From: Octopus vulgaris
Taxonomy: Eukaryota
Direction: 5' to 3'
NCBI GenBank assembly: GCA_951406725.2
Contig: OX597818.1
Span: 30,504,001-30,568,000 of the forward strand
Length of the DNA stretch: 64,000 bases
The notes under the pieces: generated by a model
Told to the model about the DNA's origin: nothing
What the model saw: only the letters and a program-made list of their open reading frames with translations
Database searches by the model: none
Made by a program: the position numbers and the translations under genes
Shown: piece after piece, positions 2,066 to 54,730 of the stretch
How positions within the stretch are numbered: the stretch's first letter is position 1
Layout of the letters: the number at the start of each line of letters is the position of its first letter

Positions 2066-4873
2066 ATCATCATCATCGTTTAACGTCCGTTTTCCGCACT
2101 AGCACGGGTTGGACGGTTCGACCGGGGTCTGGGGAGCCAGGGGCTGCCCCAGGCTCCAGTCTGGTCTGGCAGTGTTTCTACAGCTGGATGCCCTTCCTAA
2201 CGCCAACCACTCCGCGAGTGTAGTGGGTGCTTTTTACGTGCCACCTGCACAGGTGCCAGAGGGGTCTGGCATCGGCCACGATCAGTTGGTGTTTTTTTTG
2301 TTTTTTTTTGTGCTACCGGCACAGAAGGCGGTGCTGGCATCGGTCACATTCGGATGGTGATTTTTATGTTCCACCGGCACAGAAGCCAGTCGGGGCGGTG
2401 CTGGCATCGGCCACGTTCGGATGTTGCCTTTTATGTGCCACCGGCACAGAACCCATTCGAGGCGGGGTTGGCATCGGTCACGTTCGGATGGTGCTTTTTA
2501 TGTGCCACCGGCACAGAAGCCAGTGGAGGCTGCACTGGCGACGGCCACGTTCGGATGGTGCTTTTTATGTGTCACCGGCACAGGTATCACAACTACTACT
2601 GTTTCCATTGATATTTGGTTCGATGTTCATGTACATGCACTTGACTCAACAGGTCTCCTCAAGCACAGCGAGATGTTCCACGATCGGTTGGTGCTTTTTA
2701 TGTGCCACCGGCACAGAAGCCAGTCGGCGTGGTGCTGGCATCGGCCACGTTCGGATGTTGCCTTTATGGCACAGAAGCCAGTGGAGGCTGCACTGGCAAT
2801 GGCCTCGATCGGACGGTGCTTTATATGTGTCACCGGCACAGGTATCACAACTACTGTTTCCATTGATATTTGGTTCGATATTCATGTGTCACCGGCACAG
2901 AAGACATTCGAGGCGGGGTTGGCATCGGTCACGTTCGGATGGAGCTTTTTATGTGCCACCGGCACAGAAGCCAGTGGAGGCTGCACTGGCAACGGCCACA
3001 TTCGGATGGTGCTTTATATATGTCACCGGCACAGGTATCACAACTACTGTTTCCATTGATATTTGGCTCGATGTTCATGTGCCACCGGCACAGAAGCCAT
3101 TCTAGGCGGGGTAGGCATCGGTCACGTTCGGATGGTGCTTTTTCCATTGATATTTGGCTCGATGTTCATGTGTCACCGGCACAGAAGCCATTCGAGGCGG
3201 GGTAGGCATCGGTCACGTTCGGATGGTGCATTTTATGTGCCACCGGCACAGAAGCCAGTGGAGGCTGCACTGGCAACGGCCACGTTCGGATGGTGCTTTT
3301 TATGTGTCACCGGCACAGGTATCACAACTACTGTTTCCATTGATATTTGGTTCGATGTTCATGTGCCACCGGCACAGAAGCCATTCGAGGCGGGGTTGGC
3401 ATCGGTCACGTTCGGATGGAGCTTTTTATGTGCCACCGGCACAGAAGCCAGTGGAGGCTGCACTGGCGACGGCCACGATCAGATGGTGCTTTCCATGTGT
3501 CACCGGCACAGGTATCACAACTACTGTTTCCATTGATATTTGGTTCGATGTTCATGTATATGCACTTGACTTGACAGGTCTCCTCAAGCACAGCGAGATG
3601 TTCCAGGATCCAAGGTACTTTGGATGGGCAGGGGGTATGCGGAACTGGTGCCGGGAGCATCCCGGGTCTTAGTAGTCACAGCACATCTCCAGAGGTCTCG
3701 GTCCTTCGCCATTGCCTCAGTGAGGCCCAACGCTCTGAGGTCATGCTTGACTACCTCATTCCATGTCTTCCTGGGTCTACCTCTCCCCTGATTCCTTCAA
3801 CTGTTCGGGAGTGGCACTTCTTCACACATCTCTCCTCATCCATCCGCAATACATGACCATACCATCGCAAGCGTCGCTCTTGCACACCGCATCTGATGCT
3901 TCTTATGCCTAGCATTTCTCTCAGGGTGCTTACACTCTGTTGTGCATTCAAACTGACATTACACATCCAGCGGATCATGCTAGCTTCATTTCTTTCAAGT
4001 CTACGCATGTCCTTTGCAGTCACGGCCCATGTTTCACTGCCGTGAAGCATGGCAGTTCGCACACATGCATCATACAATCTACCTTTCACTCTGAGTGAGA
4101 GACCCTTTGTCGCCAGTAGGGGTAGGAGCTTTCTAAACTTTGCCCAGGCTATTCGTATTCTAGTGGTGACACTCTCTGAGCATCCACCCCCACTACTAAC
4201 TTGGTCACCCAGGTAGCGGAACCTATCAACTACTTCTAGTTTATCCCCCTGGAGTGTGATGGAATCTGTTTTTTAGGTGTCTGTGGTGTCTATTGTCCCT
4301 GTGCATCTGCCGCACATGAAAGCTATCTTATCAGTTAATTTCCCTTTGATGTTGCTGCACCTCTTATGCGTCCATAGCTTACACTGGGTGCATCTTATGG
4401 AGTTTCTACCTACACCTTTCCTACAGCTTGAGCAGGGCCACCTGCCCGATGGGGGTGTACTGAGTTCGCCTTTCTGCATACTATAACTTTGGTCTTCGCT
4501 ACATTTACTCTAAGGCCCTTAGATTCTAACCCTTGTTTCCACACCCGAAATTTCTTTTTTAGTTCCGGTAGTGATTCTGCTATGAGGGCCAGGTCATCAG
4601 CATAGAGGAGCTCCCAGGGGCAACCTGTTTTGAATTCCTCTGTTATTGCCTGGAGGACTATGATGAATAAAAGGGGACTGAGGGCTGAGCCCTGATGTAC
4701 ACCTACTTCTACCCGGAATTCTTCACTATATTCGTTGCCAATCCTAACCTTGCTGACAGCCTCTCTGTATAGAGCCTGTACAGCCCTTATTAGCCATTCA
4801 TCGATCAACAGTTTCCGCATCGACCACCAGATAAGGGATCAGGGAACCCTGTCAAAGGCTTTCTCCAAATCCA
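2066..4873 (-). mobile_element. 5'-truncated RTE LINE with partial RT and an expanded ~1.5-kb repeat-array 3' UTR
   Basis: ORF 4410..4820 (GVHQGSALSPLLF...LLYADD), ORF 4273..4479 (Cys-rich CxxC cluster) and ORF 3751..4089; (CAT)n tail at 2066. Confidence 0.93.
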
Positions 4874-13319: not shown

Positions 13320-14740
13320 GCAGACACGCCTGACCCCCGTGCCGGTGGCACGTAAAACGCACCATCCGATCGTGGTTGTTGCCAGCCTCGCCTGGCCCCC
13401 GTGCCGGTGGCACATAAAAAGCACCATCCGACCGTGGCCGTTTGCCAGCTCCGTCTGGCACTTGTGCCGGTGGCACGTAAAAAGCACCCACAACACTCAC
13501 GGAGTGGTTGGCGTTAGGAAGGGCATCAAGCTGTAGAAACATTGCCAGATCACACTGGGCCTGGTGCAGCCTTCTGGCTTCCCAGACCCCAGTTGAACCG
13601 TCCAACCCATGCTAGCATGGAAAGTGGACGCTAAATGAGGATGATAGGAAGTGCATCCAGCTTTAGAAACTATGTCAAACCAGACTGGAGCCTGGGGCAG
13701 CTTGACAGTTCCAGTCAAACTGTCTAACCCATGCCAGCATGGAAAGCAGACACTAAATGGTGACGACGATGATGATGATGATGATGATGATGATGTAGCT
13801 AGGTGGTTTAAGAAGTTTGCTTCCCAACCATTTGGTTTCGAGTTCAGTCCCATTGCACAGCACTTTGGGCACATGTCTTCTACTATAGCCTCTGGCTAAC
13901 CAAAGCTTTGTGAGTTCATTTAATTGATGGAAACTGAAAGATGTCTGTTGTGTGTGTGTGCACGCATGCATGAACATACCATAACTCAACAGCCATTATG
14001 TGATGACTGTGAGTGCCACCATCATACAAACCATGTTGTTCATTTCATGAGACATTAGTCTGGTGATGGGAAAATATTACCTTGTTTGGAAACAGGTGAG
14101 GACAGAAGGATAGAAAATCAACCTCAACAAATTGCATCAGACTCACACAAGCATGGAAATGCAAACATTAAATGGATGGTGATGATGATAGGTAGCAAAT
14201 ATGGGGCACAGTATTGAAGTAATTTAATTGATCAGATATTGCATTGCCAATGCTGCTGGACTGGCTCATGTGCAGGTGGCACATAAAATGCGCCATTTGA
14301 GCGTGGCCGTTGCCAGTACAGCCTGACTGTGTGTGTGTGTGTATATAAAAAGCACCAGCCGACCGTGGCCATTTGCCAGCCACGTCTGGCACCTGTGCTG
14401 GTGGCACGTAAAAAGCACTCACTACACTCACGGAGTGGTTGGCGTTAGGAAGGGCATCCAGCCGTAGAAGCATTGCCAGATCAGACTGGGCCTGGTGCAG
14501 CCTTCTGGCTTCCCAGACCCCAGTTGAACCGTCCAACCCATGCTAGCATGGAAAGCGGACGCTAATAAAAGCACCCACTACACTCTCAGAGTGGTTGCGT
14601 TAGGAAGGGCATCCAGCTGTAGAAACTCTGCCAGATCAGATTGGAGTCTGGTGTAGCCATCTGGTTCACCAGTCCTCAGTCAAATCGTCCAACCCATGCT
14701 AGCATGGAAAGTGGACATTAAACAATGATGGTGATGATTA
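13320..14740 (+). mobile_element. Cluster of RTE 3'-tail fragments and an old SINE
   Basis: Repeated ggagtggttggcgttaggaagggcatc...catgctagcatggaaa tails near 13500, 14430 and 14590, with a tRNA-like head near 13800. Confidence 0.8.
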
Positions 14741-15499
14741 GGTGGTTTGCAGACATTGAGATCAAAAGTTAAGTTGTATTTGTATGGGTTTAGTATTTGT
14801 GAAGTGTGTGTAACTTGTGAAGTAGAGAACGTTGTTATTGTAGTTTTGTAACAGTTTGTGACAAAAAAAAATAGCTCCACTTATGTATTTCTTTTTCTGT
14901 TTATTTCTACATTTCCTCAATTGTGTAATTCAGATGAGTCGTTTTTGTTTTTATGTTTCTCTTTTGTTGTTTTTTTTAATAAATTTGATCAGTTGCATAT
15001 TGTTGAAGTAGATACATACTGCTAAATCGCTCTGCTTTAAAGTTGGAATGGCATTTTTATCAACAAGATGATCTAATACAGAAATATTGGACGTCATCAC
15101 TCAGTGTTCTTGCATTTGACCCTATAATATACAGATTACTTATCAAATGTAATGCTTATTTAATCACACTGCTTTTAATTAATAATGCATTTTCCTGTGC
15201 CTTTGCAATTTTGATGATGTGATTGCATATTTGTAGAATAACATTGCAGAATAGATGTTAGAGGCTGGATCTGGCCAGTTTGAACATAAAACGGATAGAA
15301 TATCTTGGCCTGATGTGACCGGTTTTAATGCTAAAGAGTTTTCATAGCCACTATTGTTCCTTGCAATCATATTGTTTATATCAGCCATTGGCAAACTGCT
15401 AGCCTGTGAGACTTACTGAGTGAATTTTTTTAATTGAGTGGCCTGCCTGATGGTGAACTATGTCTCATGTGACCGTTCTCTTAGAAGAGATTGCTCATG

Positions 15500-16500
15500 C
15501 AGGCATGGTTGTGTGGTAAGAAGCTTGCTTCCCAACCACATGGTTCCAGGTTCAGTCTCACTATGTAGCACCATGGACAAGTGCCTTCTACTATAGTCTT
15601 AGGCCAACAAAAGTCTTGTGGGTGGATTTGATAGACAGAAACTGAAAGAAGCTTATTGTGTGTGTGTATATATATATATGTCGAAATTGAATTCGAAATC
15701 GAATCTCATCCGACGACTGGCACCCATGCCAACCTCCCTTCATTGGACACTAAACTCTGCTTGCGAAGACCTGCTGGGGCAAGTGAAATCGGAATTGAAA
15801 TTGAACCAATCCTATGACTGGCACCCGGCAGTTGCCACTGCTGCTGGACTGATTCCTGTGCAGGTGGCAAGTAAAGAAACGCCGTTTCGACCCTGTGCTT
15901 GAGGAGACCTATCGAGTCAAGTACATCAACATCAAAAATCACTGGAAATTGTAGTTGTAATCCCTGTGCCGGTGGCACATAAAAAGCACCATCCGAACGT
16001 GGCTGATGCCAGCGCAGCCTTGACGGGCTTCCGTGCCGGTGGCACGTAAAAGGCACCAACCGATCGTGGTCGTTGTTAGCCTCACCTGGCACCTGTGTCA
16101 GTGGCACGTAAAAAGCACCCACTACACTCACGGAGTGGTTGGTGTTAGGAAGGGCATCCAGCTGTAGAAACACTGCCAGATCAGACTGGAGCCTGGTGCA
16201 GCCTTCTAGCTTCCCAGACCCCAGTTGAACCGTCCAACCCATGCTAGCATGGAAAACGGACGTAAACGATGATGATGATGATGATATTTATGTGTGTGTC
16301 TCCGTGTCTGTGTTCATCCCCCACCCCACCCCATTGTTTGACAACCAATTTTGATGTCCCTGTAACTTAGCAGTTCAGTAGAAGAGACCAATACAACCAG
16401 GCTTACTAAGAATAAGTCCAGGGGTCAATTCTTTGACTAAACAGCAGTGCTCCAGCATGGCCCTAATCAAATGACTGAAACAAGCAAAAGAATAAAAGAA
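15500..16500 (+). mobile_element. SINE family 1 copy split by an RTE 3'-end insertion (about 15680-16285) inside its microsatellite
   Basis: SINE head at 15500-15670 and SINE tail at 16290-16500 flank an RTE 3' UTR ending in (GAT)n. Confidence 0.8.
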
Positions 16501-25824: not shown

Positions 25825-26125
25825 GAAATGCTTTGATAACTTTAACATGAATAAAGAAGAAAGGAAATATTTACAGCGTGGAAGGTGTTTACAAGCCATT
25901 TAAGAAACAGAATCCATTAGATTCACTTCAACATTTTGTCAGTGAACAGGTCACAGTCTCAAAGTGACAAAAATATTTTGACAAATTAAATTTAAATGTT
26001 GAAGTGAATCTAATGGATTTTGTGTGTTTCTTAAATGGCTTATAAACACCTTCCATGCTGCAACTGTTTTCATTCCAGTGCACGATCTCAGAACAGGTCA
26101 CTTGCTATGCAAGTACATCTCTGAA
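25825..26125. mobile_element. Fold-back PLE-type terminal repeat element, near-identical to 38689-38985
   Basis: Inverted arms (gtggaaggtgtttacaagccatttaagaaac...cacttcaacattt and its reverse complement) surround a hammerhead-like core. Confidence 0.65.
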
Positions 26126-26934
26126 ATATTTACATTTAGATCAAAATATTGCTACCAGTTGCAAATGCTTAAGCCAATTTAGTCATGCTATAGAAAAAAG
26201 GGAAATACACTGAACTGAATTAATTTATGCTCTCCATTGAGAGCATAACTACAGTTCCTTTCCTCAACATTAATTATTATTGACACTAATCACTGTCTTA
26301 ACACTGACCATTTCTATAACTAACCCTTCACTCTTTCTCTCTCTCTCTTACACATATGCACACAACAAACAGGAAACTCCCATTAGTGCTTCCCATTACC
26401 TTTGTCATTATCTCTCATTACTTCTACCTTTCCTGCCTCACTTTGTTATTTCTTTACAACTGTGTCTTCCATTTCTCCTTTGTTTCACACTATAATCTCA
26501 ATCTCTGTTACCTATTTCATTTTTTATCTTACACACACACACAAATCTGTGTGTTTAAAATGTAAATCAGGTATACAGCAATTTCTCTGACGTATGAAAT
26601 TTACTGAAATGAACCATGTTGTGATATATTTTGTTTGGTTGGCTACCTGTGTGCTATCACAGCAGACTAGATTACAAAACAGTTACAACACCTGTCATTT
26701 TACAAGTAATGACAAACGGCAATTCTGTCCCACTAAAACTTTTTCAGTCATTTATAACATAAGGAGACAACTGTAAGAATATGCTGCAGAATTAAATCAG
26801 TGACTGGCTGCTTATGAATTATTTATGGTACATATGAAAGTGAATAAATTTGTGTATGTGTATTTGAAATAGTTACTAAAAGAGGTGTTTGGCATTGCCT
26901 AGCACAAGGAGAACTTTGTATGTATGTATGCATG

Positions 26935-27377: not shown

Positions 27378-28909
27378 GTATGTATGTATACATGCATACA
27401 CTTGCATTATTTTATATATTTGTGGAGGGAAGATGTGGGCAAAGTGGTGAGAAAGAATCTTCAGAAGGGAAGAGGGGATGACAGGGAGGATAATAGGGGA
27501 CGGAGACTCCTGGCAGTTTGCTGTGCATGAGAAGACACGCCAAGCTAAGTAAAATTGGGATTGACTTTGCACACAGGCATGTCTCCTGCATCCCTCTTCA
27601 GCTGAGCATTCTTAACCTTGTGGGCTTATGGATGCTGGTGCCATACGAAAAGCACCCGGTATACTCTGTAAAGTGGTTGGTGTTAGGAAGAGCATGCAGC
27701 TGTAGAAACCATGCCAGAACGGACATGGAACCTGGCCGGCTCCTGTCAAACTGTCCAACCCATACCAAATGGAAAATGGACATTAAATGATGATGATGAT
27801 GATTATACTTACACACACACATATATAATGGGTGAAGACCCCAATTCGGTCATGAATGTCCATGGGATTGCACCTGGAAAGTTACTTTCCGAGGCACAAG
27901 TCTAGGCAAGACTGTTTGTGGAAGATTATCAGTCGCCCATGCATACCAGCTTCCCCACTCCATTCCACCAATGTTATCCAAGAGAAAAGCAAAGGCCAAT
28001 ATGGCTTGGCATCAGTGATGTTGCAATTCTACAGCTAAGTGAACTGGAGCAATGTGAAATAAAGTGTCTTGCTCCAAAGAATGTATATATGTATTGTAAT
28101 ATTTTGTGACAACCAGTACCTAACACAACAAAGCTTTTACATGTTACTTTTGACAATCTTTATCTAAAAAAGTGAAACCAGTCAAGTGAATAAATTGCAT
28201 TTTCAAACCTTCTTTCATATATAATTCATATATAATTCACAGAGTAGTTGGCGTTAGGAAGGGTATCCAGCTGTAGAAACACTGCCAGATCAGACTGGAG
28301 CCTGGTGCAGCCTCCTGGATTCCCAGACCCCAGCCAAACTGTCCACCCCATGCCAGCATGGAAAGCATGATGATCATGATAATGTTTCAAATTTACTATC
28401 CCACTTCACTCACAGAGTAGTTGGTGTTAGGAAGGGTATCCAGCTATAGAAACACTGCCAGAACAGACTGGAGCCTGGTGCAGCCTCCTGGCTTCCCAGA
28501 CCCCAGTCGAATTGTCTAACCCATGCTAGCATGGAAAACAGACATTAAACGATGATGATGATGATGATCTTATTGGATTTCTTTTGGCTTCTAAAACTCA
28601 TTACTGGAGTGTTGCTCATTCTTTTCTAGTTTATTCTATTTATGAAATAATTGCGACAAAACTAAGGTGCCTCCAGAATAACATGTCTTCATATAGTATT
28701 AAAAAATGTTATCATCGTTTAATATCCACTTTCCATTCTGGCATGGGTTGGACGATTTGACTGAGGACTGGCAAGCCAGATGGCTGCACCAGGCTCCAAT
28801 CTGATCTGGCAGAGTTTCTACAGCTGGATGCCCTTCCGAGAGTGTGACAATATTTTACAAACTCAATTTCCTCTGATACAAAATTATAATTTTACCCCTT
28901 GTATTTCAG

Positions 28910-28978
28910 TTCAGCCTGGATGATTTGAAAAATTCACCAAACGAAACTGCATGCTGGGATGGAGTTCGGAATTATCAG
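28910..28978 (+). CDS. THYN1: THYN1 coding exon
   Basis: Acceptor ccttgtatttcag, donor CAG|gtttgt. Translates FSLDDLKNSPNETACWDGVRNYQ, containing the EVE WDGVRNYQ motif. Phase 0/0. Confidence 0.96.
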
Positions 28979-29126
28979 GTTTGTTAATTTATTTTTGATT
29001 TTCATAGTTTTATTTTAGAATTTTAAAATTCATTCATTCTTGACAATCCATTGACAAGCTGCTCTGACTATTTTCCTTTTCCTGGGATATTTGCATATGT
29101 GCTATAACATTTCCATTCTCCCTCCC

Positions 29127-29197
<71 letters not shown>

Positions 29198-29316
29198 TCA
29201 CACACATATACAAAATATTTCCATTCACAAGCTACTCTGACTATTTTCCTCTCCCTGAAATATTTTGAATATATGCTATATTTCCTTCCTATACATACAT
29301 GCATGTATGCATGCAC

Positions 29317-29352
<36 letters not shown>

Positions 29353-29354
29353 AC

Positions 29355-29910
29355 CTTCAAAACCAGTGGGAAGGAAACATCATGAAAACCAGTGAGAAGG
29401 AAACATCATGGTTTCCTTCTCTCCATTTCTGAAGGTTCTCAGGACCCACTGAGCCATCTGTTTGTACTTTATCACCATCTTGTGACCCAGGTCACACGTT
29501 GATTTATGTTCTGGGATTGTAATCCGCCCTGGGCCAATGCATATTACCAATTCAGTAATAAAATGCACACAGTTAGTTGGATGGACCCTATGAACTTACA
29601 AAACAAAAGGAGACATTGATGGTCCTTTGGAGGACATATATCCTCAGCCACTTGGACTGGTCACTACACAATATAAAATTCACGGAAGAACTTGAATCCA
29701 TCAAATGAAGCTACACAGGGAAAATCATTTCAATGCAATGTATTAGCTTCTGTGAAAGACTGAAAGAATTAAAACTCTTCTCCCTAGAATGAAGGCAGGA
29801 AAGATATGGAGTGATATACATCAGGAAAATCCTGGAAGGCTTTGTACCAAACCTTGGCATTGAAAGTTACTCAAACTGCAGAATAGGTTGCTGCTGCATA
29901 GTGCCATATA
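29355..29910. mobile_element. CR1/L2-group LINE C-terminal fragments in opposite orientations
   Basis: Minus strand KQMAQWVLRTFRN (29380-29568); plus strand ERLKELKLFSLE.RQERYGVIYI.KILEG (about 29750-29840). Confidence 0.6.
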
Positions 29911-29954
29911 TAACCCAGTATTATTTACATTAGAAATCTCTTGTAGGCAAGAAA

Positions 29955-30351
29955 TCTTTATATATAAAAGTAAGGTTGTGTGCTGTCTGTCTCCTACGAT
30001 TTAGATTCCTAACTACTCCCACATTTTGCGGTGCAGTTTAACCAAATCTGGATATCTTATAGTCGTGATTCATATCGAGCCCTTCTGGGTATTAGCGCGT
30101 GTCTATGATGAGTCTACAATTTAAAAAAAAATTTACCATCAATTTTTCCCATTTTAATGCATTTTTGGCATATATAAGAGAAGTAACTCTCTAAAAATTT
30201 ATTATTAAATCTCAGAACGTAAAAAGCTACAGTAACACCCCCCCCTTTGTGGTTAGCCATATTGAGATGGCTATTATACTTTACATCTCTAAAAAATGCT
30301 TATATAGTTATTTCCCTTACAAACCCGAGCAACGCCGGGCGATACTGCTAG
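29955..30351 (+). mobile_element. Non-autonomous Helitron (about 400 bp)
   Basis: A|TC 5' end; 3' hairpin cccgagc-aac-gccggg then CTAG|T; no TSD. A second copy lies at 55425-55808. Confidence 0.88.
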
Positions 30352-30809
30352 TATAAGATAAAATTTATTATAAACAACACAAATACTTCGTAATTTAATA
30401 GCTTTCAATGTGACACCTGTTAAACAGAAATTATTTTTATTTAATGAAAATTTAATAAAATCTAATCATAAGTAAGTGAAATCATGCTAAATGCAACTAA
30501 ATTGAAAATCATTTCTGATATCGGCAATTCTGAAAACTTTTGGGTATGAATTTTACATGAGTAGAAGTTTTTTTTAACAATTTTTTATCTTGAAAATCAC
30601 CTGCATAAATTACACAGGTGCGCAAATTACATGGGTTTTTATAGTAATAGTTAAAAGTGGAAAATAAAAATATAAAAAAGAACATGAGGATGATTGAGCA
30701 TTCAGCCAGTACAGTCTATTTTAACTCCACCTTTTCTACCTTTATGCTTTGTTTGCTTCTCTAGAATTGTTAAATAATCTCCAAACCATTCTTATTTTGT
30801 TATTTGGGA

Positions 30810-31395
30810 CTTAGGATGGATGTAAGTGATTGATGTGAAGCAGCTGTGACAGCAAGAGTGAGACTTGGCTGGGTGAAGTTCAGGGAACATGGAGGGTTGT
30901 TATATTGGAAAAGGTTCTCCTTGAAAATGAAAGGAAGGGTTTATCAGAGCTGCATGAGATCTGCAATGCTGTATGGGAGTGAAACATGGTGTCTAAGTGA
31001 AAGTGAAACGGCAATTTTGAGAAGGACTGAGAGAGCAATGTGTGGTGTAAAACTATTGGATAAAAGGAAGGCTGAGGACTTGCTAGGGTTGGAGGAATTG
31101 GTGGAATGGTTGGCAAGTGCAAATGGAGTGCAGTGGTATGGACATATTGAGGAGGGATGAGGATCATGTCCTGAGGGGAGTGCTTGAGTTTAAAGTAAAT
31201 GAACCATGAAAGCGAGGTCGACCAAAGAAAATGTGGAGGGACAGATGGAGGAGGAGATTGAGAGGTTGACTTGAGGAAGGAGGATGCCCAAAACTGGGCA
31301 AGATGGTGTGAGGGCAATTATTGTAAGAGTGAGATAGATTCAGCCACCCCCGTTAACAGGGACAAACTCAGATTTAAAATATTGGAATTCATCAT
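30810..31395 (+). mobile_element. Older RTE LINE 3' fragment (different subfamily)
   Basis: AVTARVRLGWVKFRE...MKGRVYQSCMRSAMLYGSETW...QWYGH. Confidence 0.85.
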
Positions 31396-32009
31396 CATTT
31401 TACTGGGTTCAAAGATATCCATTTGCATGCAAATGTTGATTTAAAGTTATTATTTTAAAGCAAGTTTAAGAATAATAATCAAGCATTTACTGATGGAAAG
31501 CTCAAAGCTGATAGTAGAGTTAAACCTATCATAAAACCCTAGTCAACAGGAATATTACAATAAATTAGACTTTGCCTAATCTGTTTAATGTACATAGTCA
31601 TAATAAGCAGCTCCTTTTCTTTTTCTATGCTTAAACTTTTTGTTGCTATATTGCCATTGAACTACACTGCTTTTGTTTCAGTTTATTTTATAAACAATGA
31701 AGAATTTAATAAAATAACTTTGCTGTTATTAACCCTTTAGTGTTCAGATTAATCTGTCAAATGTAATGCTTATTTGTTCATGTTATTTTGAATTATTCAG
31801 GTTCAAGAGGGGTGTCCACAATATTTGCTTGTTACTTTGTAAATTTTTTACATACAGATTTGAAATTTTGTCAGTTAGTGCTTATGTACCAGTGGATTAT
31901 AGTTATGTACTTTAGCTGATCTTGCTGATTAGATTTGACTTTTATGGGGCAGGTAAATTAAATTAATTAAAATACCAGTATAATCAATACAAGATTTTAT
32001 TCTTTCTCT

Positions 32010-35000
32010 ATCATCATCATCATCATCATCGTTTAACGTCCGCTTTCCATGCTAGCATGGGTTGGACGGTTCAACTGGGGTCTGGCAAGCCCGAAGGCTG
32101 CACCAGGCCAGTCAGATCTGGCAGTGTTTCTACAGCTGGATGCCCTTCCTAACGCCAACCACTCCGAGAGTGTAGTGGGTGATTTTATGTGCCACCGACA
32201 CAGGTGCCAGACGAGGCTGGCAGACGGCCACGCTCGGATGGTGTTTTTTATGTGCCACCGACACAGGTGCCAGACGAGGCTGGCAGACGGCCACGCTCAG
32301 ATGGTGTTTTTTATGTGCCACCGACACAGGTGCCAGACGAGGCTGGCAGACGGCCACGCTCAGATGGTGTTTTTTATGTGCCACCGACACAGGTGCCAGA
32401 CGAGGCTGGCAGACGGCCACGCTCGGATGGTGTTTTCTTATGTGTCACCGGCACAGGTGCCAGACGAGGCTGGCGAACGGCCACGCTCGGATGGTGTTTG
32501 TTACGTGCCCTCAGCATGGAGGCCAGTCGATGCGGTACTGGCTACGGTCACGTTCAGATAGTTTTCTTATGTGCCACCGGCACTGGTACCATAAAGGATA
32601 CAAATAGGATGCAAATTCCATTGATGTACATCTATTTTGATTTGGTTTTGATTTTGATTTTGATTTTCACTTGCCTCAACAGGTCTTCTCAAGTGTCACA
32701 ATAAGGAAGGTATGCACAGGTGGACTGACTACGTCCCAGGTAGGGGCCACGGGATATGGCTTCACTAGTCTTGCCGGGTCTTCTCACGCACAGCATACTT
32801 CCATAGGTCTCGGTCTCTAGTCATTTCCATGGTGAGACCTAACGTCCGAAGGTCGTGCTTCACCACCTCGTCCCAGGTTTTCCTGGGTCTACCTCTTCCA
32901 CGGGTTCCCTCAACTGCTAGGGATTGGCACTTTCTCACACACCTATCTTCATCCATTCTCGCCACATGACCATACCAGCACAATCGTCTCTCTTGCACAC
33001 CACAACTGATGCTTCTTAGGTACAACATTTCTCTCAAGGTACTAACGCTCTGTCGAGTAAGTACACTGACATTACACATCCATCGGAGCATACTGGCTTC
33101 ATTCCTCACGAGCTTACGCATGTCCTCAGCAGTCACGGCCCATGTACACATGCATCATACAGTCTGCCTTTTACTCTGAGCGAGAGGCCTTTAGTCACCA
33201 GCAGAGGTAAGAGCTCCCTAAACTTTGCCCAGGCTATTCTTATTCTAGCAGTTACACTTTCAGCGCACCCACCCCCACTACTGACTTGGTCACCTAGATA
33301 GCGGAAGCTATCAACTACTTCTAGTTTTTCCCCCGGAAAGTGACGGAAGTTGTTTTCTGCAGATTTTCGGAGGTCAATGCTCCCGAGCATCTGCCACATA
33401 CAAAAACTATCTTCCCAGTTAGCCTACCTTTGACATTGCTGCACCTCTTATGTGTCCATAGCTTACACTGGGTACATCTTATAGAGTTTCTACCTACACC
33501 TTTTCTACAGATCGAGCAGGGCCATCTTCCTGAGGATATTTGTGGATTGTCTACCTTTCTACTTATTAGTACTTTGGTTTTAGCTAGGTTGACTCTAAGG
33601 CCCCTCGATTCTAAACCCTCCTTCCACACCTGGAACTTCTGCTCCAGTTCTGATAGTGACTCAGCAATTAGAGCGAAGTCGTCAGCATAGAGGAGCCCCC
33701 TCCTATTTATCATAGTCCTCCAGGCAATTGTGGAGGAATTCAAGACAGGCTGCCCCTGGCTAAATAGACCTGTCTCCTAGCTTCCCTTCTGGCTGTCTGA
33801 TACAATTCCCTGCTACCACCGTTCTTCCAGTCCTTCCAAGCCTGTCTCTTTTGTCTAATAGCCCTGTCAACCACAGTGTTCCACCACCATGTTACTCTGA
33901 GTCGAGATGGTACTTTGCTCCATCCACAGATCTGGTCAGTGGCTGTCAGCAGATTGTCCCGTAGGAATCTCCAGTTGTCTTCCACGTTAAGTGAAGCTAT
34001 ATCCCCTTCTATTTCGTCAAAGGCCTCGAGTAGTATGTCTCTAAATCTCTGTCCATTTGCAGGATCTTTAAGCTTCCAGACCCTTCTCCTCCAAGCTGGT
34101 CTTCTTTTGGGCAACCATTTAGCTCTGATCCTGAAGTCGCTAACCACTAATCTATGTTGGGGAGTACATTCTTCGCCTGGAAAGGTTTTGGCTTTTATAA
34201 TCAGCCCTCCTATCCTTTTTCTGGCAAGGATGTAGTCAATCTGGCTGGTGTGTCTGCCAGAACGGTAGGTGACTAGGTGAGAGGTGGGTTTCCTGAAGTT
34301 GGTATTGCAGACCATAAGGTCATTTGCATCGCAGAACTCCAGCAGCCTGGTTCCCTCCTCATTACGAGAGCCAAAACCGTAGCCTCCATGGACGCCATGG
34401 AAGCCCCCGACATGTCGTCCAACATGTCCATTGAAATCACCTGCCACGAAGAGAAGGTCATTGTCATTTGTCAATGAGGTAGTCCGCAATAGGGTGTCAT
34501 AGAATTGGTCTTTTTGTCCTTCCGGTAGCCCTGGTTGAGGGGCATATGCCGAGATGATGGTAGCTGTCCTATGGTGAAGGACTAATCTAATTTTAATTAC
34601 TCTGTCACTTACTCTGACTACCTCGATTACCTTACCTACCCATTTCCCCGCAAGAAGTATACCCACGCCCCTGACCCCGTCAGTGTTCCCTGTCCAGAAA
34701 ATCTTGTACCTGTGTTCCTTGCTTGTGAGGAGCCTAGCGGAACCTCCTCTCCACCTTACTTCCTGGATACAGCATACATCCACACGTCTCCGTTCAAGTA
34801 GCTCTACAATCTCTCCAGACCTACCTTTCAATGTGCCAACATTGAGCGTGCCAACTCTGAGGGTGTGGGAGGTGTGGGCATCAGAGACCCTGGGATGAGG
34901 GACAGCCGTGTCATGTACCTGAAAAGAAAGCTTGCATCTGGCAGATTTCATATGGAAACACTAGACTACAACTTGCATACTTTTCACAATTTTTTGCGCT

Positions 35001-35446
35001 ATATGATCAGATAAACCCTACATAGGTGCTAGTGGGGGAGTGGGGTAGTTTCCGGTATTTGGGTAGAAACTTCCGGTATTGGTGGTGGGAGGGTGGGCGA
35101 CGAAATCGAAGCAACTAGTTTGAATACTTTATTTGAGGGGAAAAATAATTAGATAAATGACTGAATGAAAGCCAGAGAGAGAATGAAAATAAATAAATAA
35201 TAAGAAATGCGATAAGATACGAGGGGGCATATTTTCGGAGGAGAATGGAATAAACATCGAAGATGGCGTTGAAAGAACGATAAACTTTAAAAATGCATGA
35301 AGTCGCCATGTTTAGAGAATAGAGAAACGAAAGGGGAACAGATCAAACAAAACGCTTAAAAATATGAAAAGAGCAGGTTGAGATTTTTTACTTAACTGGC
35401 CATTTTTGGAAGTCCGTGTTTTCTCTGAAGTCCGTGTTTTCTCTTC
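32010..35446 (-). mobile_element. Near full-span RTE LINE with an open APE endonuclease region and most of the RT deleted
   Basis: ORF 33740..34951 has APE motifs (TLNVGTL, IQEVRW, SAYAPQ, AGDFNGHVG, SQIDYIL, QHRLVV) and then jumps to LLYADD. Cys cluster, C-terminus, array 3' UTR and (CAT)n tail follow. The 5' boundary is approximate. Confidence 0.92.
33740..34951 (-). pseudogene. RTE apurinic-like endonuclease domain ORF (403 aa, truncated before the RT)
   Basis: Uninterrupted APE motifs; the ORF ends at the rearrangement junction. Confidence 0.88.
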
Positions 35447-36493
35447 ATAGAAAATAAAGTGCGAAGCTCTTTTACTAGTCAATATACTAATGGCTATGTA
35501 CTCTTATACAGTTTAATGAATACATTTACATAACAATGCATCTAATAAAAAAAAAAAAAAGAAAGATCATTAACAGGTGAGGCAAAGGTGAATACAGTTG
35601 TGTAACATATTGAAAATCAGTATGTATTTCTCACTTTCACATAAATGAAAGGAATATATGATAGTATTACTATCAAATAACAAAATATAGTTATGCCCAT
35701 ATTTCTATCATTAAACTGTCCAATATTTCTATCATGAAACTTTTGTAAGTTCTATCTATGGATCACTCAGCACATCTTTACCCAGCTGTCTTCCTCTGCA
35801 CATATTTGATACCTACTATTTCAGTTTCCTCTCTTGTACACAACCTTCAATTCCTATCATAACCACTTTTTCTCTCATTTTATTTGTGCGCCATTGTTTA
35901 CGCACATCAACACTGCACATCCAGTGGAGCATGCTCACCTCATTTCTTTCCATCCTTTACACAGCCTCCACATTCAATGCTCATATTCCATTCCTGTGCA
36001 TCATTGCTCATTGTACACCAGCATCATACATTTAGAGAGAGAATCCATATATTACTAGCAGAAGCATAGTAGTCACAACAAGGACAGGGTGGAAAATGCT
36101 CTGAGCCATTGCTGCTGCCAGTAATATAGGTATTCTCTGAGTGTAAAACAGACTGTATGATTCTGGTGTCTTTATATCCCCAATGGCTATTTCCACCATA
36201 TGCCTGTGAGTTTCAGCAGCTGACCTCTCTTATGAGTCCACTTGACATTCGTCTCTCTACCAAATCTACTTCTCAATCTGTAAGCTCTTATATTAGCATT
36301 TCCGTGCCTCCTCGTTGATGCCCATAAGAGTAAGTGTGCTGCTTCATTACCGATACACTGCTTTGCATTCCAGAATACTTTACACTCCTAATTTTCATTT
36401 TGCAAAACACTGGTAAATTGCTTACTTTCCGGACTCAGCTCTTAGCTTTTCTTGTTTTTCAAAAAGGGTTAAAGAAGTTCTTAACTTCTTTAA

Positions 36494-36944
36494 CCCTTTC
36501 ATTACCATATTTATTTTGAGATGCTCTGTGTTTCTTTCAGTTATTTAAAATATAACAAAGAATTTAGTAAAATATATTTCTTTTACTACCCACAAGGGGC
36601 TAAACACAGAGGGGACAAACGGATTAAGTCGATTACATCGACCCCAGTGCGTAACTGGTACTTAATTTATCGACCCCGAAAGGATGAAAGGCAAAGTCAA
36701 CCTCGACGGAATTTGAACTCAGAACGTAACGGCAGACAAAATACGGCTACGCATTTCGCCCGGCGTGCTAACGTTTCTGCCAGCTTGCCGAATTTAGTAA
36801 AATAAGTTAGTTGTCATTAAGCTAGTGTTAGGAACATGAATTGTGACTAAGGTTTGGTGGAAGATTTTAATTCAAAACTTATGAAAACAAGACATTTGTA
36901 CTACAGAGCCAGAGTCAGTTTCTGCTGGGTTGGTAACGAAAGGG
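36494..36944. mobile_element. piggyBac-type MITE carrying a nested SINE
   Basis: TTAA TSD and CCCTT/AAGGG ends; removing the insert restores the 17709-17930 sequence. Confidence 0.85.
36575..36789 (-). mobile_element. tRNA-derived SINE family 3 with 15-bp TSD
   Basis: TSD gaatttagtaaaata at 36560-36574 and 36790-36804; core gttgactttgcctttcatcctttcggggtcgataaattaagtacc. Confidence 0.88.
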
Positions 36945-37326
36945 TTAAGTCAATTGACAGGTTATTATCAAATGTACTGTAATGAAGCAAAAGCTCTAAA
37001 TGGTTTTTCAAGTTTTGTCTGGGCTTATGTTCCAAAACTGGAATGACATTATACTTAAAACCAGATATGAAAACATATTTCATCTAGAATATTCTGTACC
37101 ATATTCCTCAGTCTAACTGATACACAAATTTTACTGTCCAGAAATCACTGGTATTATGAATCTAAGTAACTATTTAGACTAAGCTGCTTTGTTGGGACTT
37201 GCAATCAGTTACCTGAGGATTTTACCATTATTATAATAAATAATCAATATACTCCAGTAATATTTCAAGAAACTGACGTTTATGTTGTTGTTTTTTACAA
37301 TAGACAGCTTCTTATATAGATATTTT

Positions 37327-37726
37327 GGATCTTTTCAGTTTGAACAGCAGTTTTTAACATAATTTCTAGGTAACTAAAAAATTTTAGGCTTCATATACTG
37401 GTAGAATATGTTTATGAAACATTTTTTTCTCTTGGCTTTATTGAGAAAATTCTATAGTTTTAAGATATTTGTTGGTTTTTTTTTCTTCAATTTCTGCAAT
37501 TTCAACCAATCAGTGATGTCTATTGAGTTAAAAGGCATTCTGTGCCATATGAATATGTCCTTCATTTAAGAAACAGATTGGGTTTATTTACATTTGTGAA
37601 GAAAAAAAAGATACCCTAACCCTAAAAGAGATTGAAATGCAATAGATCAATTCTAGGGTCATAATTATGGGTGACAATTTCATATGACAGCGCTAGAAAA
37701 AACTGCCCTTCAAACCGAAAAGATCC
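37327..37726. mobile_element. MITE with GGATCTTTTC TIRs and perfect 8-bp TSD
   Basis: gatatttt|ggatc...gatcc|gatatttt; inverted copy of 5057-5475. Confidence 0.88.
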
Positions 37727-38469
37727 GATATTTTAATTATTGTCAGTAAATTGGTTAATGAAAATTGCTTTTATTTAAATTGTATTTTACAACAAATTGA
37801 GGAGAATTTTTTTATTATTTGGAAGGTCTACTGTTTGTGCTTTATTGTTAAGGGCAATAAATGTTATATTTACCTAATGCAACAACTTCTTTTCTGCAGC
37901 TGTTACAATGTTTTATGGACATGGTTATACTGAAACACCACCTTTACTCTGGACATTTACATCCATTAAACTTTGTTTAACATACTTTTGTTATTTTTGT
38001 TTGTTTGTTTGTTTTTGGTTTTACATTCCAGTGAACTGATCAATGCCTGGAAGCTTTAGATGACATCTGAAGAAAATGACATTTTTTTTTTTTAACTTGC
38101 ACGGTATAATTTAAATGCCAACATACTTTTTGCAAGTGATGTCTTTAATTAAGTAATACAGCATTATTTCAAAGACAGTGCATGATTTGCAAATAATTTC
38201 TCTATTAAACTGAAACCACTACCTGCCAGACTAACAAAGTGTCAGCAGCTCTAACTATAGAAATTCCATAAGTTGCTTCATGATTGACAGTTCACATCAC
38301 AAACAGCACAAACTGTTACAAACTATATCAGGCTTAAAAAAATGGCACGTACATTTATACAGTTAACTGTGCTGTCACACATTTTACTTCTTCAACCATT
38401 TAATACTTTTAACTCCATGGCATTACTACAATTCCTGATTATACTATTAAAAAATAATAAATAAATAAT

Positions 38470-38990
38470 TGCAGCGTGGAAGGTGTTTATAAGCCATTTA
38501 AGAAACAGACAAAATCTGTTAGATTCACTTCAACATTTAAATTTAATTTGTCAAAATATTTTCATCGCTTTGAGACCGTGACCTGTTCACTGACAAAATT
38601 CTGTGCTGCATCTGAGAAAGTAACAGTTAGTTCATGATATATATGTACGTATATGTATGTGTGTGTATGTATGTATGTGCATATACATGAAATGCTTTGA
38701 TAACTTTAACATGAATAAAGAAGAAAGGAAATATTTACAGTGTGGAAGGTGTTTACAAGCCATTTAAGAAACAGAATCCATTAGATTCACTTCAACATTT
38801 TGTCAGTGAACAGGTCACGGTCTCAAAGTGACGAAAATATTTTGACAAATTAAATTTAAATGTTGAAGTGAATCTAATGGATTTGTGTGTTTCTTAAATG
38901 GCTTATAAACACTTTCTACGCTACAATTGTTTTCGTTCCAGCACATGATCTCAGATCAGGTCACTTGCTATGCAAGTACATCTCCGTAAT
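38470..38990. mobile_element. Inverted pair of PLE-type terminal repeats separated by a microsatellite
   Basis: 38470-38600 is the reverse complement of about 38797-38925; 38689-38985 duplicates 25825-26125. Confidence 0.7.
38799..38849 (+). ncRNA. Candidate minimal type-I hammerhead ribozyme, G3-C8 core variant
   Basis: Stem I UUUGUCA/UGACAAA; core GUGAACA; stem II GUCAC/GUGAC; GAAA; palindromic stem III AAUAUU; predicted cleavage after U38842. Confidence 0.6.
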
Positions 38991-39090
38991 AAATAATAAA
39001 GTAAAAAAAAAAAAACACCAACATTGTTTCCTATAATGAATACATTTTAATTCAGTGGATTTATCCGTATTTTCCTTTTGTCTTTTGTAG

Positions 39091-39186
39091 GCTAGAAATT
39101 TTATGAAAGATCAAATGAAAGTTAAGCATAAAGTATTTTTTTATCATAGTAACTGTAAAATTCCTGGAATTGCTGGCATCTGTGAG
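39091..39186 (+). CDS. THYN1: THYN1 coding exon
   Basis: Acceptor tcttttgtag, donor GAG|gtcagt. Translates ARNFMKDQMKVKHKVFFYHSNCKIPGIAGICE (ARNF..M, FFYHS and PGI.G motifs). Confidence 0.96.
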
Positions 39187-39809: not shown

Positions 39810-40612
39810 TTCACTTGTTTCAGTCATTTGACTGTGGCCATGCTAGAGCACTGCCTTGAAGGGATTTTAGTCAAATAAATCAACTGCAGGACTTATTTTT
39901 CAGCCTAGTACTTATTCTATCTATCCTTCTCTTTTGCTGAACTGCTAAGTTATAGGGACGTTAACTCACCAACACCAGTTGTCAAACGGTGATGGGAGGG
40001 GACAAACAAAGACACACACCCCTATATATATATATATGCATGTATATATATGTGTGCTTGCGGAGACCTATCGAGTCAAGTACATCAACATCAAAATAAA
40101 AATCAAATGGAAATTGTAGTTGTGATACATACCTGTGCCGGTGGTGCGTAAAAAGCACCATCAAAACGTGGCCGATGCCAGCGCCGCCTTGACTGGCTTC
40201 TGTGCTGGTGGCACGTAAAAAGCACCAACTGACTGTGGCCGCTGCCAGCGTACCCCTGGCACCTGTGCTGATGGCTTGTAAAAAGCACCCACTACACTCA
40301 TGGAGTGGTTGGCGTTAGGAAGGGCATCCAGCTGTAGAAACACTGCCAGATCAGACTGGAGCCTGGTGCAGCCTCCTGGATCCCCAGACCCCAGTCAAAC
40401 CATCCAACCCGTGCCAGCACAGAAAACGGACGTTAAACGATGATGATGATGATATATATATATTTATATATATATATATATATGACAGCCTTCTTTCAGT
40501 TTCCACCTACCAGATCCACTCACAAGGTTTTGCTCAGCCTCAGGCTATAGTAGAAGACACTTGCCCATGGTGCCATGCAGTGGGACTGAACCCGGAGCCA
40601 TGTAGTTGGGAA
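39810..40612 (-). mobile_element. Old SINE family 1 copy split by a +strand RTE 3'-end insertion (about 40050-40455)
   Basis: The SINE halves flank an RTE tail inserted in the internal TA microsatellite. Confidence 0.8.
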
Positions 40613-43504: not shown

Positions 43505-46850
<3,346 letters not shown>

Positions 46851-54026: not shown

Positions 54027-54342
54027 ACGTGCCGGTGGCACGTAAAAAGCACCATCTGAACATGGCCAATGCCAGCTCCGCCTTCACTGGCTTCCATGCT
54101 GGTAGCACATAAAAAGCACCAATCCGATCGTGGCTGTTGCCAGCCTCGCCTGGCACCTGTGCCGGTAGCATGTAAAAAGCACCCACTACACTCACGGAGT
54201 GGTTAGTGTTAGGAAGGGCATCCAGCTGTAGAAACACTGCCAGATCAGACTGGAGCCTGGTGCAGCCTTCTGGCTTCCCAGATCCCCGGTCGAACCGTCC
54301 AACCCATGCTAGCATGGAGAACGGACGTTAAATGATGATGAT
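54027..54342 (+). mobile_element. RTE 3'-UTR/tail fragment
   Basis: Hairpin units and (GAT)n tail, inserted in a TA microsatellite. Confidence 0.88.
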
Positions 54343-54349
54343 ACATATA

Positions 54350-54730
54350 TCTTTTACTTGTTTCAGTTATTAGACTGCAGCAATACTGGTACACCGCCTT
54401 GAAGAAATTTTAGTTGAATGAATCAACCCCAGTACTTAATTTTATTAAGCTTGGTACTTGTTTTGTTGGTCTCTTTTACTGAACCACTAAGTTACAGGAA
54501 TGTAAACACACCAACACTGGTTGTCAAGTGGTGGTTGGGGCACAGACACAAAGACATATATATATATACAACGGGCATCGCATCTTTCAGTTTCCATCTA
54601 CCAAATATGCTTACAAGACTTCAGTCAGCCCCAGGGTAGAGTAGAAGACACCCAAGGTGCCACTCAGTGGGGCTCAACCCAGAACCATGTTGTAGGGAAG
54701 CAAGCTTCTTACCACACAGTCATACCTGCA
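54350..54730 (-). mobile_element. Older SINE family 1 copy
   Basis: Diverged reverse-complement copy. Confidence 0.75.

What the first reader, a model, noticed from the sequence alone, without database searches (positions are those of the whole stretch)
38799..38849. Hammerhead-like RNA family with a swapped G3-C8 core, on the THYN1 sense strand about 240 nt before an exon
Seen: UUUGUCA-GUGAACA-G-GUCAC(ggucucaaa)GUGAC-GAAAAUAUUU-UGACAAA. This gives a perfect 7-bp stem I, a 5-bp stem II followed by GAAA, a self-complementary stem III (AAUAUU) and a UH cleavage site. The core reads GUGAACA instead of CUGANGA. Known: hammerhead positions 3 and 8 form a Watson-Crick pair (C3-G8), and minimal PLE-associated hammerheads with palindromic stem III are thought to work as dimers. 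Inference: C3G plus G8C is a compensatory double change that CUGANGA motif searches would miss, so this may be an overlooked cephalopod ribozyme/retrozyme family. Two more copies keep GUGAACA: 25935-25985 (+, G12 lost at a CpG) and 38547-38597 (-). One extra G between A9 and stem II is atypical.
Basis: partly seen in the sequence, partly recalled or inferred. Interest (0 to 1): 0.78.

Follow-up and report, generated by a model that had tools for sequence, protein, structure and literature searches.

The report
Swapped-core hammerhead in octopus retrotransposon
The motif is one of thousands of copies of a hammerhead-shaped RNA carried at the start of an octopus Penelope-type jumping gene, in which two paired catalytic-core letters are swapped relative to its sister element; it likely cuts its own RNA slowly, but cutting is untested and this intronic copy is probably a passenger.

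Summary
The motif is real and lies as described. It is not a stand-alone retrozyme, and probably not a THYN1 regulator. It is the type I minimal hammerhead in the 5' UTR/pseudo-LTR of a Neptune/Nematis-type Penelope-like retrotransposon (RT plus GIY-YIG, same strand). The genome holds 7,728 exact G3-C8 copies, mostly ~200-nt 5'-truncated pieces; 56 of 100 sampled have an inverted partner. A young subfamily with near-intact ORFs keeps core and stems unchanged; only loop II differs. A sister PLE (55% amino-acid identity) has C3-G8 at the same place, with the same extra G and stem II start, while the flanking non-coding DNA no longer aligns. The swap is therefore a real compensatory change. Cleavage is not shown. 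Against a need for catalysis: insertions were copied through the cut site, a G3-G8 sub-lineage seems to have moved, and most sister copies have A9C. The window copy is predicted to be tied up by an antisense copy, and spliced THYN1 contigs skip the intron. Natural U3-A8 and engineered C3G/G8C are published; I found no natural G3-C8 in the held papers, but Lünse 2017 was unavailable. The scan noted unverified G3-C8 motifs earlier on two other genomes.

The parts
38799..38849 (+). Type I minimal hammerhead motif, copy A (G3 38806, C8 38811, extra G 38813, G12 38833, U17 38842; predicted cut 38842/38843)
38850..38897 (+). Rest of the PLE 5' UTR between the hammerhead and the ORF start codon
   Evidence: homologous to L228, where the element runs on into the ORF
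38898..38990 (+). First 93 nt of the PLE ORF (ATG 38898). The element's two 3' ends fall near 38932 (ORF +35) and 38990 (ORF +93, end of the 'tail'), inferred internal RT start sites
38729..38800 (-). Inverted 5'-truncated piece (element positions about 60-134) joined to copy A; puts the hammerhead at the tip of a long hairpin
38463..38690 (-). Copy C: antisense copy with upstream CA-rich pLTR sequence, inferred start site at 38613, hammerhead 38547-38597, 3' end at element position 134; complementary to copy A over 134 nt
25859..26127 (+). Copy B with its own inverted arm; hammerhead 25935-25985 with G12 to A; shares about 50 nt of 5' flank and several derived changes with copy A
28910..28978 (+). 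THYN1/EVE exon upstream of the intron (28979-39090) that holds copies A and C
39091..39186 (+). THYN1/EVE exon downstream of copy A
   Evidence: Pfam EVE; spliced contigs

Best explanation
The motif is the type I minimal hammerhead in the 5' UTR/pseudo-LTR of an octopus Penelope-like retrotransposon, with a fixed G3-C8 core pair where its sister element has C3-G8, and it likely works as a slow, dimer- or protein-assisted self-cleaving RNA. Shown: its position 57 nt before the ORF start of an RT + GIY-YIG element, the copy number, the inverted insertions, two fixed 3' ends inside the ORF start, and the swap against the sister. Inferred: a capped transcript starts 16 nt before stem I; stems I and II fold in one molecule; the palindromic AAUAUU pairs with a second copy to form stem III; cutting after U17 would remove a capped leader of about 60 nt or split tandem read-through RNA. 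Also inferred: the RT starts inside the ORF (+35 or +93) and copies uncut RNA backwards, which yields the many ~150-210-nt copies. The copy in the THYN1 intron is probably an inert passenger, paired with its antisense neighbour.
For: Same-strand order ORF, 3' UTR, hammerhead in 25 ORF-linked copies, 21 with G3-C8. L228 is pLTR-ORF-pLTR and the tail runs on into the ORF. GIY-YIG PF01541 scores above cut-off; YVDD, the CX3CxxC linker and the two Cys between the GIY/YIG motifs are visible. Counts: 7,728 exact G3-C8 18-mers, 479 with G3 and other 8, 287 with other 3; 1 of the first 100 of the last is C3-G8. The sister PLE (55% over 815 aa) has C3-G8, extra G, a GUC..GAC stem II, GAAA and UH: 4,649 pattern hits, C3 in 97 and G8 in 100 of the first 100, A9 in 11. 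Family versus sister: hammerhead and ORF align better than all 300 shuffles, upstream 80 nt (69 of 300) and the UTR (43 of 300) do not. 5 of 15 pairs change on both sides, the 3-8 pair among them. Subfamily-level variants hit loop II (3 of 8 non-CpG sites) but 1 of 35 core/stem sites, and that one keeps the pair as U-G (Fisher p 0.016). 15 young copies are identical and differ from the old subfamily only in loop II. 5' ends pile at -15 to +3 (48 of 100); a non-templated G precedes 22 of 31 ends at -15, against 17 of 91 elsewhere. Stems I/II fold with P 0.9-1.0 for most pairs in the short native transcript at 37 C. In the anole PLE, C3G/G8C partly restores cleavage, cleavage needs protein, and RT starts inside the ORF (PMC11167929).
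Against: No cleavage data; only contigs, no raw reads, were offered, so RNA ends could not be seen. Most insertions run through the cut site: 2 of 100 sampled 5' ends lie at 44-46, and only 48 exact junctions at +45 exist genome-wide, 16 of them stem I fold-backs. G3-G8 mismatch copies are in excess (30 of the first 100 non-C8 hits, some on both arms of an inverted pair), so an unpaired core seems not to have blocked mobility. 85 of the first 100 sister copies have C at position 9, including those beside intact 1312-aa frames. The triplet is UUU and the AAUAUU duplex alone is only -0.2 kcal/mol. At 18 C predicted stem I pairing falls to 0.2-0.5 in native transcripts. C3G/G8C rescue is only partial (PMC8495972), and hammerhead mutants did not affect insertion in vitro. 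The covariation rests on two lineages.
Confidence: 0.62

Rival explanations
1. It descends from the PLE hammerhead but no longer cuts; the fold is kept for another role, such as binding the PLE protein, or the DNA overlaps the internal promoter.
For: Insertions come from uncut RNA; G3-G8 copies seem to have moved; most sister copies carry A9C; the motif lies directly behind the inferred start site; hammerhead cutting was dispensable for insertion in vitro (PMC11167929); Naiads thrive without canonical hammerheads (PMC8557442).
Against: Two transversions at exactly the paired positions 3 and 8 were fixed, and U4, G5, A6, A9, G12, A13, A14, A15.1, U16.1 were kept while flanks became unalignable. 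That pair belongs to the active core conformation (established knowledge).
Confidence: 0.3
2. A non-LTR retrozyme: a tandem non-coding repeat that is cut into monomers and circularised.
For: Unit size of about 200 nt and a type I motif fit the size class (PMC7229834); a 2026 preprint links retrozymes to PLE pLTRs.
Against: 0 of 100 copies have a tandem partner within 450 nt, 56 have an inverted one; long copies connect directly to the PLE ORF.
Confidence: 0.03
3. A host-domesticated intronic ribozyme that regulates THYN1 splicing or stability.
For: Copies A and B both lie on the sense strand in THYN1 introns; A has all core bases intact.
Against: 29 of 49 sampled full-motif copies elsewhere are equally intact. 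A carries 9 changes from the family majority. With 300 nt of flank, stems I and II have P = 0 because antisense copy C pairs with A. Contigs from two studies join the flanking exons. B has lost G12.
Confidence: 0.03
4. A chance look-alike inside a palindromic repeat.
For: Loose descriptors do hit shuffled DNA (3 hits in 100 shuffles).
Against: It sits where PLE hammerheads sit, and the sister has a canonical or near-canonical core at the same place.
Confidence: 0.02

Closest known systems
Minimal type I hammerheads of metazoan PLE pLTRs (Cervera & de la Pena 2014, PMC4209133)
   Same: In the pLTR of an RT + GIY-YIG PLE; extra nucleotide after A9; G10.1-C11.1; short palindromic stem III; thousands of solo or inverted copies.
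   Different: Core pair G3-C8 (that paper reports C3-G8 and U3-A8); extra base G rather than H; longer stem I (7 bp).
Anolis Poseidon PAc and its hammerhead (Frangieh et al. 2024, PMC11167929)
   Same: Hammerhead at the pLTR-ORF junction; two fixed 3' ends inside the ORF start (tail); AT-rich targets; insertions from uncut RNA.
   Different: PAc is naturally C3-G8 and C3G/G8C was an engineered rescue; here the swap is natural. The motif lies wholly in the 5' UTR, the tail is about 58 nt, and the element has a CX3CxxC linker (Neptune/Nematis type).
Natural U3-A8 hammerheads (Perreault 2011, PMC3088659; Schistosoma Cercyon PLEs, PMC4209133)
   Same: Natural covariation of the 3-8 core pair.
   Different: U3-A8 takes two transitions and keeps pyrimidine-purine order; G3-C8 takes two transversions and reverses it.
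Metazoan non-LTR retrozymes (PMC7229834; bioRxiv 10.64898/2026.07.22.740005)
   Same: Short abundant repeats with a type I hammerhead, related to PLE pLTRs.
   Different: No tandem arrays in the sample; directly tied to an autonomous ORF; minimal motif.

Membership tests
PLE minimal type I hammerhead | Literal core CUGANGA | tested here: not met
   GUGAACA; 1 C3-G8 in the first 100 of 287 non-G3 hits
PLE minimal type I hammerhead | Watson-Crick pair between positions 3 and 8 | tested here: met
   G3-C8 in 45 of 49 full-motif copies; C3-G8 in the sister
PLE minimal type I hammerhead | U4 G5 A6, A9, G12 A13 A14, A15.1-U16.1, H17 | tested here: met
PLE minimal type I hammerhead | Extra nucleotide between 9 and 10.1; G10.1-C11.1; palindromic 15.2-16.2 | tested here: met
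   the extra base is G, the published consensus H
PLE minimal type I hammerhead | Located in the pLTR of a PLE | tested here: met
PLE minimal type I hammerhead | Site-specific self-cleavage after N17 | not testable with these tools
   no raw reads offered; junction count at +45 inconclusive
EN+ Penelope-like element, Neptune/Nematis type | Single ORF, RT followed by C-terminal GIY-YIG | tested here: met
   1025-aa frame; PF01541 25.4 bits, cut-off 22.6. No Pfam RT hit; RT rests on the YVDD motif and named homologues
EN+ Penelope-like element, Neptune/Nematis type | CX2-5CxxC linker and CCHH endonuclease motif | tested here: met
   read by eye in the translation against the definition in PMC8557442
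EN+ Penelope-like element, Neptune/Nematis type | pLTRs, inverted 5'-truncated copy, optional tail, (TA)n targets | tested here: met
   56 of 100 inverted; 3' ends cluster at 128-136 and 183-192; 38 of 100 followed by ATAT; tail about 58 nt, longer than the published 30-40
EN+ Penelope-like element, Neptune/Nematis type | Clade placement in an RT tree with reference PLEs | not tested
   no reference set on hand
Non-LTR retrozyme | Head-to-tail tandem repeats | tested here: not met
   0 of 100 within 450 nt
Non-LTR retrozyme | Circular RNA monomers | not testable with these tools
   no raw RNA reads
Domesticated intronic hammerhead | Locus conserved beyond its repeat family and able to fold in pre-mRNA | tested here: inconclusive
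   fold predicted blocked; decay like other copies; orthologous loci not examined

The most novel reading that the evidence does not exclude
A naturally fixed, catalytically active G3-C8 hammerhead class, invisible to CUGANGA and Rfam searches, kept under selection in a recently mobile PLE. Because only uncut RNA is inserted, the ribozyme would act as a self-limiting switch that cuts the capped leader off the element's mRNA 57 nt before the start codon. Octopus PLEs would then hold three of the four possible 3-8 pairs (C-G, G-C, U-A) as a natural experiment on what PLE hammerheads are for.
Probability: 0.33. Interest if true: 0.72.

Novelty: new variant of a known kind. Interest (0 to 1): 0.52.

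Why it matters
The 3-8 pair of the hammerhead core was known to swap in the test tube and to vary to U-A in nature. A fixed natural G-C reversal in a large, recently mobile family extends the natural core alphabet and shows that standard descriptors undercount genomic hammerheads; elements listed as lacking a hammerhead may deserve a rescan. The family and its sister give matched natural alleles (G3-C8, G3-G8, C3-G8 with A9 or C9) beside near-intact ORFs, which makes the open question of what PLE hammerheads do directly testable. It says little about THYN1.

Tried and rejected
Rfam: nothing at gathering score in the window; no hit over the motif among the best 150 of 174 weak matches in L228. 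RNA ends: no RNA holder is on record and only contigs were offered, so neither lay can show a cut site, strand or level; the family is present in runs of four coded organisms, but the variant table was cut and showed no rows inside the motif. Cleavage trace in insertions: 48 junctions exactly at +45, 16 of them stem I fold-backs; my rough uniform expectation for the rest was about 11 against 32 seen (some are internal deletions or small duplications), with no control position, so inconclusive. G3-G8 as the evolutionary intermediate: the one ORF-linked G3-G8 copy falls with the old subfamily at weak support; not supported. A3-U8 copies (3 of the first 100) match chance double mutation. The window's A-U stem II pair as covariation: rejected, CpG decay (2 of 51 copies have both changes). 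My A9-requiring descriptor first missed the sister motif; it was found by eye. A spliced-leader reading of the branch-point/AG-like sequence before the motif was set aside because only a single G is shared at those 5' ends; use as a 3' splice site in read-through RNA is not excluded. Deduplication by place failed; I removed 3 duplicate rows by hand (34 to 31). Papers not held: Lünse 2017, Przybilski & Hammann 2007, Martick & Scott 2006, Hammann 2012, Scott 2013.

Full report
1. Observation. The 51-nt motif is at 38799-38849 (+) as described, with two more copies at 25935 (+) and 38547-38597 (-). A descriptor accepting any Watson-Crick 3-8 pair finds only this copy in the window; 100 shuffles give 3 hits of at least 9 bp and 1 of at least 12. 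Rfam misses it. The host gene is EVE/THYN1: exons at about 10572, 28910-28978, 39091-39186 and about 50220. A and C lie in intron 28979-39090, B in the intron before.

2. The repeat. The motif starts a unit running to 38990. Exact counts in the own genome: 7,728 for the G3-C8 18-mer, 479 with G3 and another base at 8 (first 100 by hand: T 53, G 30, A 17), 287 with another base at 3 (first 100: A 61, T 27, C 12, one C3-G8), 2,160 for a 23-mer at the 3' end. I sampled the first 100 of those 2,160, chosen on the 3' end only. Their 5' ends: 5 beyond -15, 28 at -15 to -9, 20 at -8 to +3, 13 at 4-43, 2 at 44-46, 32 further in. 56 have an inverted piece within 450 nt upstream and none a tandem piece; inverted pieces end mostly at 128-136; 30 copies anchored at the 5' side end mostly at 128-136 (10) or 183-192 (13). 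38 of 100 are followed by ATAT. Median divergence from the majority is 5.4% (n = 78, biased low by the exact-match selection). Inverted 5' copies, an optional tail and (TA)n targets are the described PLE pattern (PMC8557442, passages).

3. The autonomous element. Long copies continue upstream through about 1 kb of microsatellite-rich sequence into an ORF on the same strand. A young subfamily has frames up to 1025 aa with GIY-YIG PF01541 above cut-off, a YVDD RT motif, a CX3CxxC linker and the PLE Cys/His pattern (definition). Pfam gave no RT hit. The nearest named homologue is an RT-domain protein labelled Octopus vulgaris, 58%. In L228 the pLTR precedes the ORF: the ATG is 57 nt after U17, and the two 3' ends fall at ORF +35 and +93. 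This parallels the anole PLE, whose RT starts inside its ORF and so makes the tail (PMC11167929, parts 1-2 of 4). Among 25 copies with ORF and motif in one locus, 21 are G3-C8, 1 G3-G8, 1 A3-U8 and 2 deleted. At 5' ends exactly at -15, the base before is G in 22 of 31 where the template has C or T, against 17 of 91 at other ends (some rows are two arms of one insertion). I read this as a cap-derived G (recalled knowledge of RTs), hence a start site 16 nt before stem I. That explains why solo ~200-nt copies dominate: coverage drops over a hundred-fold beyond the tail in all four runs laid.

4. Is the swap real? Within the family, decay is mostly neutral: non-CpG substitution is 2.9% in the core and 4.1% in the UTR. 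The informative changes are subfamily variants. They hit loop II at 3 of 8 non-CpG sites but 1 of 35 core/stem sites, and that one turns U-A into U-G (p 0.016). 15 of 17 young copies printed are identical over the motif and differ from the old subfamily only in loop II. A sister PLE (66% over a 150-aa RT piece; 55% over 815 aa) has homologous 3' ends and, about 100 nt before its ATG, a motif with C3-G8, the same extra G, a GUC...GAC stem II, GAAA, UH and a different but paired stem I. Of its first 100 of 4,649 hits, 97 have C3 and all G8; position 9 is C in 85, A in 11, U in 4. Between the two elements the motif and the ORF align better than 300 of 300 shuffles, the upstream 80 nt and the UTR do not (69 and 43 shuffles as good; I chose the motif limits after seeing it). 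5 of 15 pairs change on both sides, including 3-8; one of the five is CpG decay, and the six rows are two lineages. The G3-C8 pair is thus a compensatory change in a conserved island.

5. Does it cut? Not shown. For: every other core base is kept, the pair was restored by two transversions, stems I and II fold in the short native transcript at 37 C, and C3G/G8C partly rescues cleavage in other hammerheads (PMC8495972, passage) and in the anole PLE, where cleavage needs the protein. Minimal PLE hammerheads cut weakly and only as dimers or with an extended helix III (PMC4209133, parts 1-2 of 4). Against: the UUU triplet, a weak stem III duplex, lower predicted stem I pairing at 18 C, insertions copied through the site, an excess of G3-G8 copies and A9C in most sister copies. 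I give about 0.6 to slow, assisted cleavage and 0.3 to a non-cutting but conserved fold.

6. The window copy. With its own inverted arm the motif folds at the tip of a hairpin, but with 300 nt of flank it pairs wholly with antisense copy C (equilibrium model only). Contigs from runs X2 and X8 (two studies, RNA only guessed) join exon 28910-28978 to exon 39091-39186, so spliced mRNA is made across it. A and B share about 50 nt of flank that no other listed match covers, 4 changes in the unit and 7 in the inverted arm: one was copied from the other, and B later lost G12 (inference).

7. What is known. Natural U3-A8 is reported (PMC3088659, section 8; PMC4209133). G3-C8 appears only as an engineered variant in what I saw. 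Searches for natural G3-C8 and for octopus PLE hammerheads (supplements of PMC8557442 and file 2 of PMC4209133; file 1 not searchable) found none. The most relevant paper, Lünse et al. 2017 on PLE hammerhead variants, was not held, so priority is open. Other papers seen: bioRxiv 2026.07.22.740005 part 1 of 5 (supplements closed); passages only of PMC6765202, PMC6155905, PMC11014351, PMC3884650, PMC7229834. Two earlier scan notes describe unverified G3-C8 motifs behind PLE-type RT genes in other genomes; I did not test them and count them as leads only.

8. Verdict. A new natural core variant of a known kind of element: PLE minimal hammerhead with G3-C8. Works like a PLE hammerhead; membership holds on structure and position, fails the literal CUGANGA core, and is untested for catalysis. 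Interest 0.52.

Noticed in passing
L276-L280, L326-L355 (sister PLE 5' UTR): A very young sister PLE with intact 1312-aa frames carries a hammerhead with C at the normally invariant position 9 (85 of the first 100 of 4,649 hits); older copies have A9.
   Followed up: partly
L238:5870 (+), L245 (-), L261:2511 (+): Hammerhead-like repeats with a U3-A8 core, compensatory stem II changes and palindromic stem III; their parent element was not identified.
   Followed up: no
L005, L065, L084, L166, L206, L208, L241, L282: Single hits of further C3-G8 hammerhead-like motifs in the fetched loci; the genome seems rich in them.
   Followed up: no
window 38463-38932: Copies C and A form a predicted intramolecular duplex of about 134 bp in THYN1 pre-mRNA, a plausible A-to-I editing substrate.
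   Followed up: partly
window 25826-26127 and 38690-38990: A and B share about 50 nt of flank and derived changes and end together at the tail: possibly a local re-copying of one intronic insertion from pre-mRNA by the PLE RT.
   Followed up: partly
L162, L164, L168, L172, L174 (contig C16): Long copies of the old subfamily are concentrated on one contig and often carry the G3-G8 mismatch core.
   Followed up: partly
window 38614-38632 (-) and homologous loci: A branch-point-like CTAAC, pyrimidine tract and AG directly precede the inferred start site; could be a 3' splice site in read-through PLE RNA.
   Followed up: no
window 13392-13791, 14323-14756, 15952-16266, 28194-28583, 40193-40471, 45982-46259, 54087-54366: Many copies of other short interspersed repeats in the THYN1 introns (families D8, D11, D17, D19).
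   Followed up: no
window 32120-32561 and 2156-3544: A 63-nt tandem array and a set of 67/193/284-nt direct repeats (D9, D10, D16).
   Followed up: no
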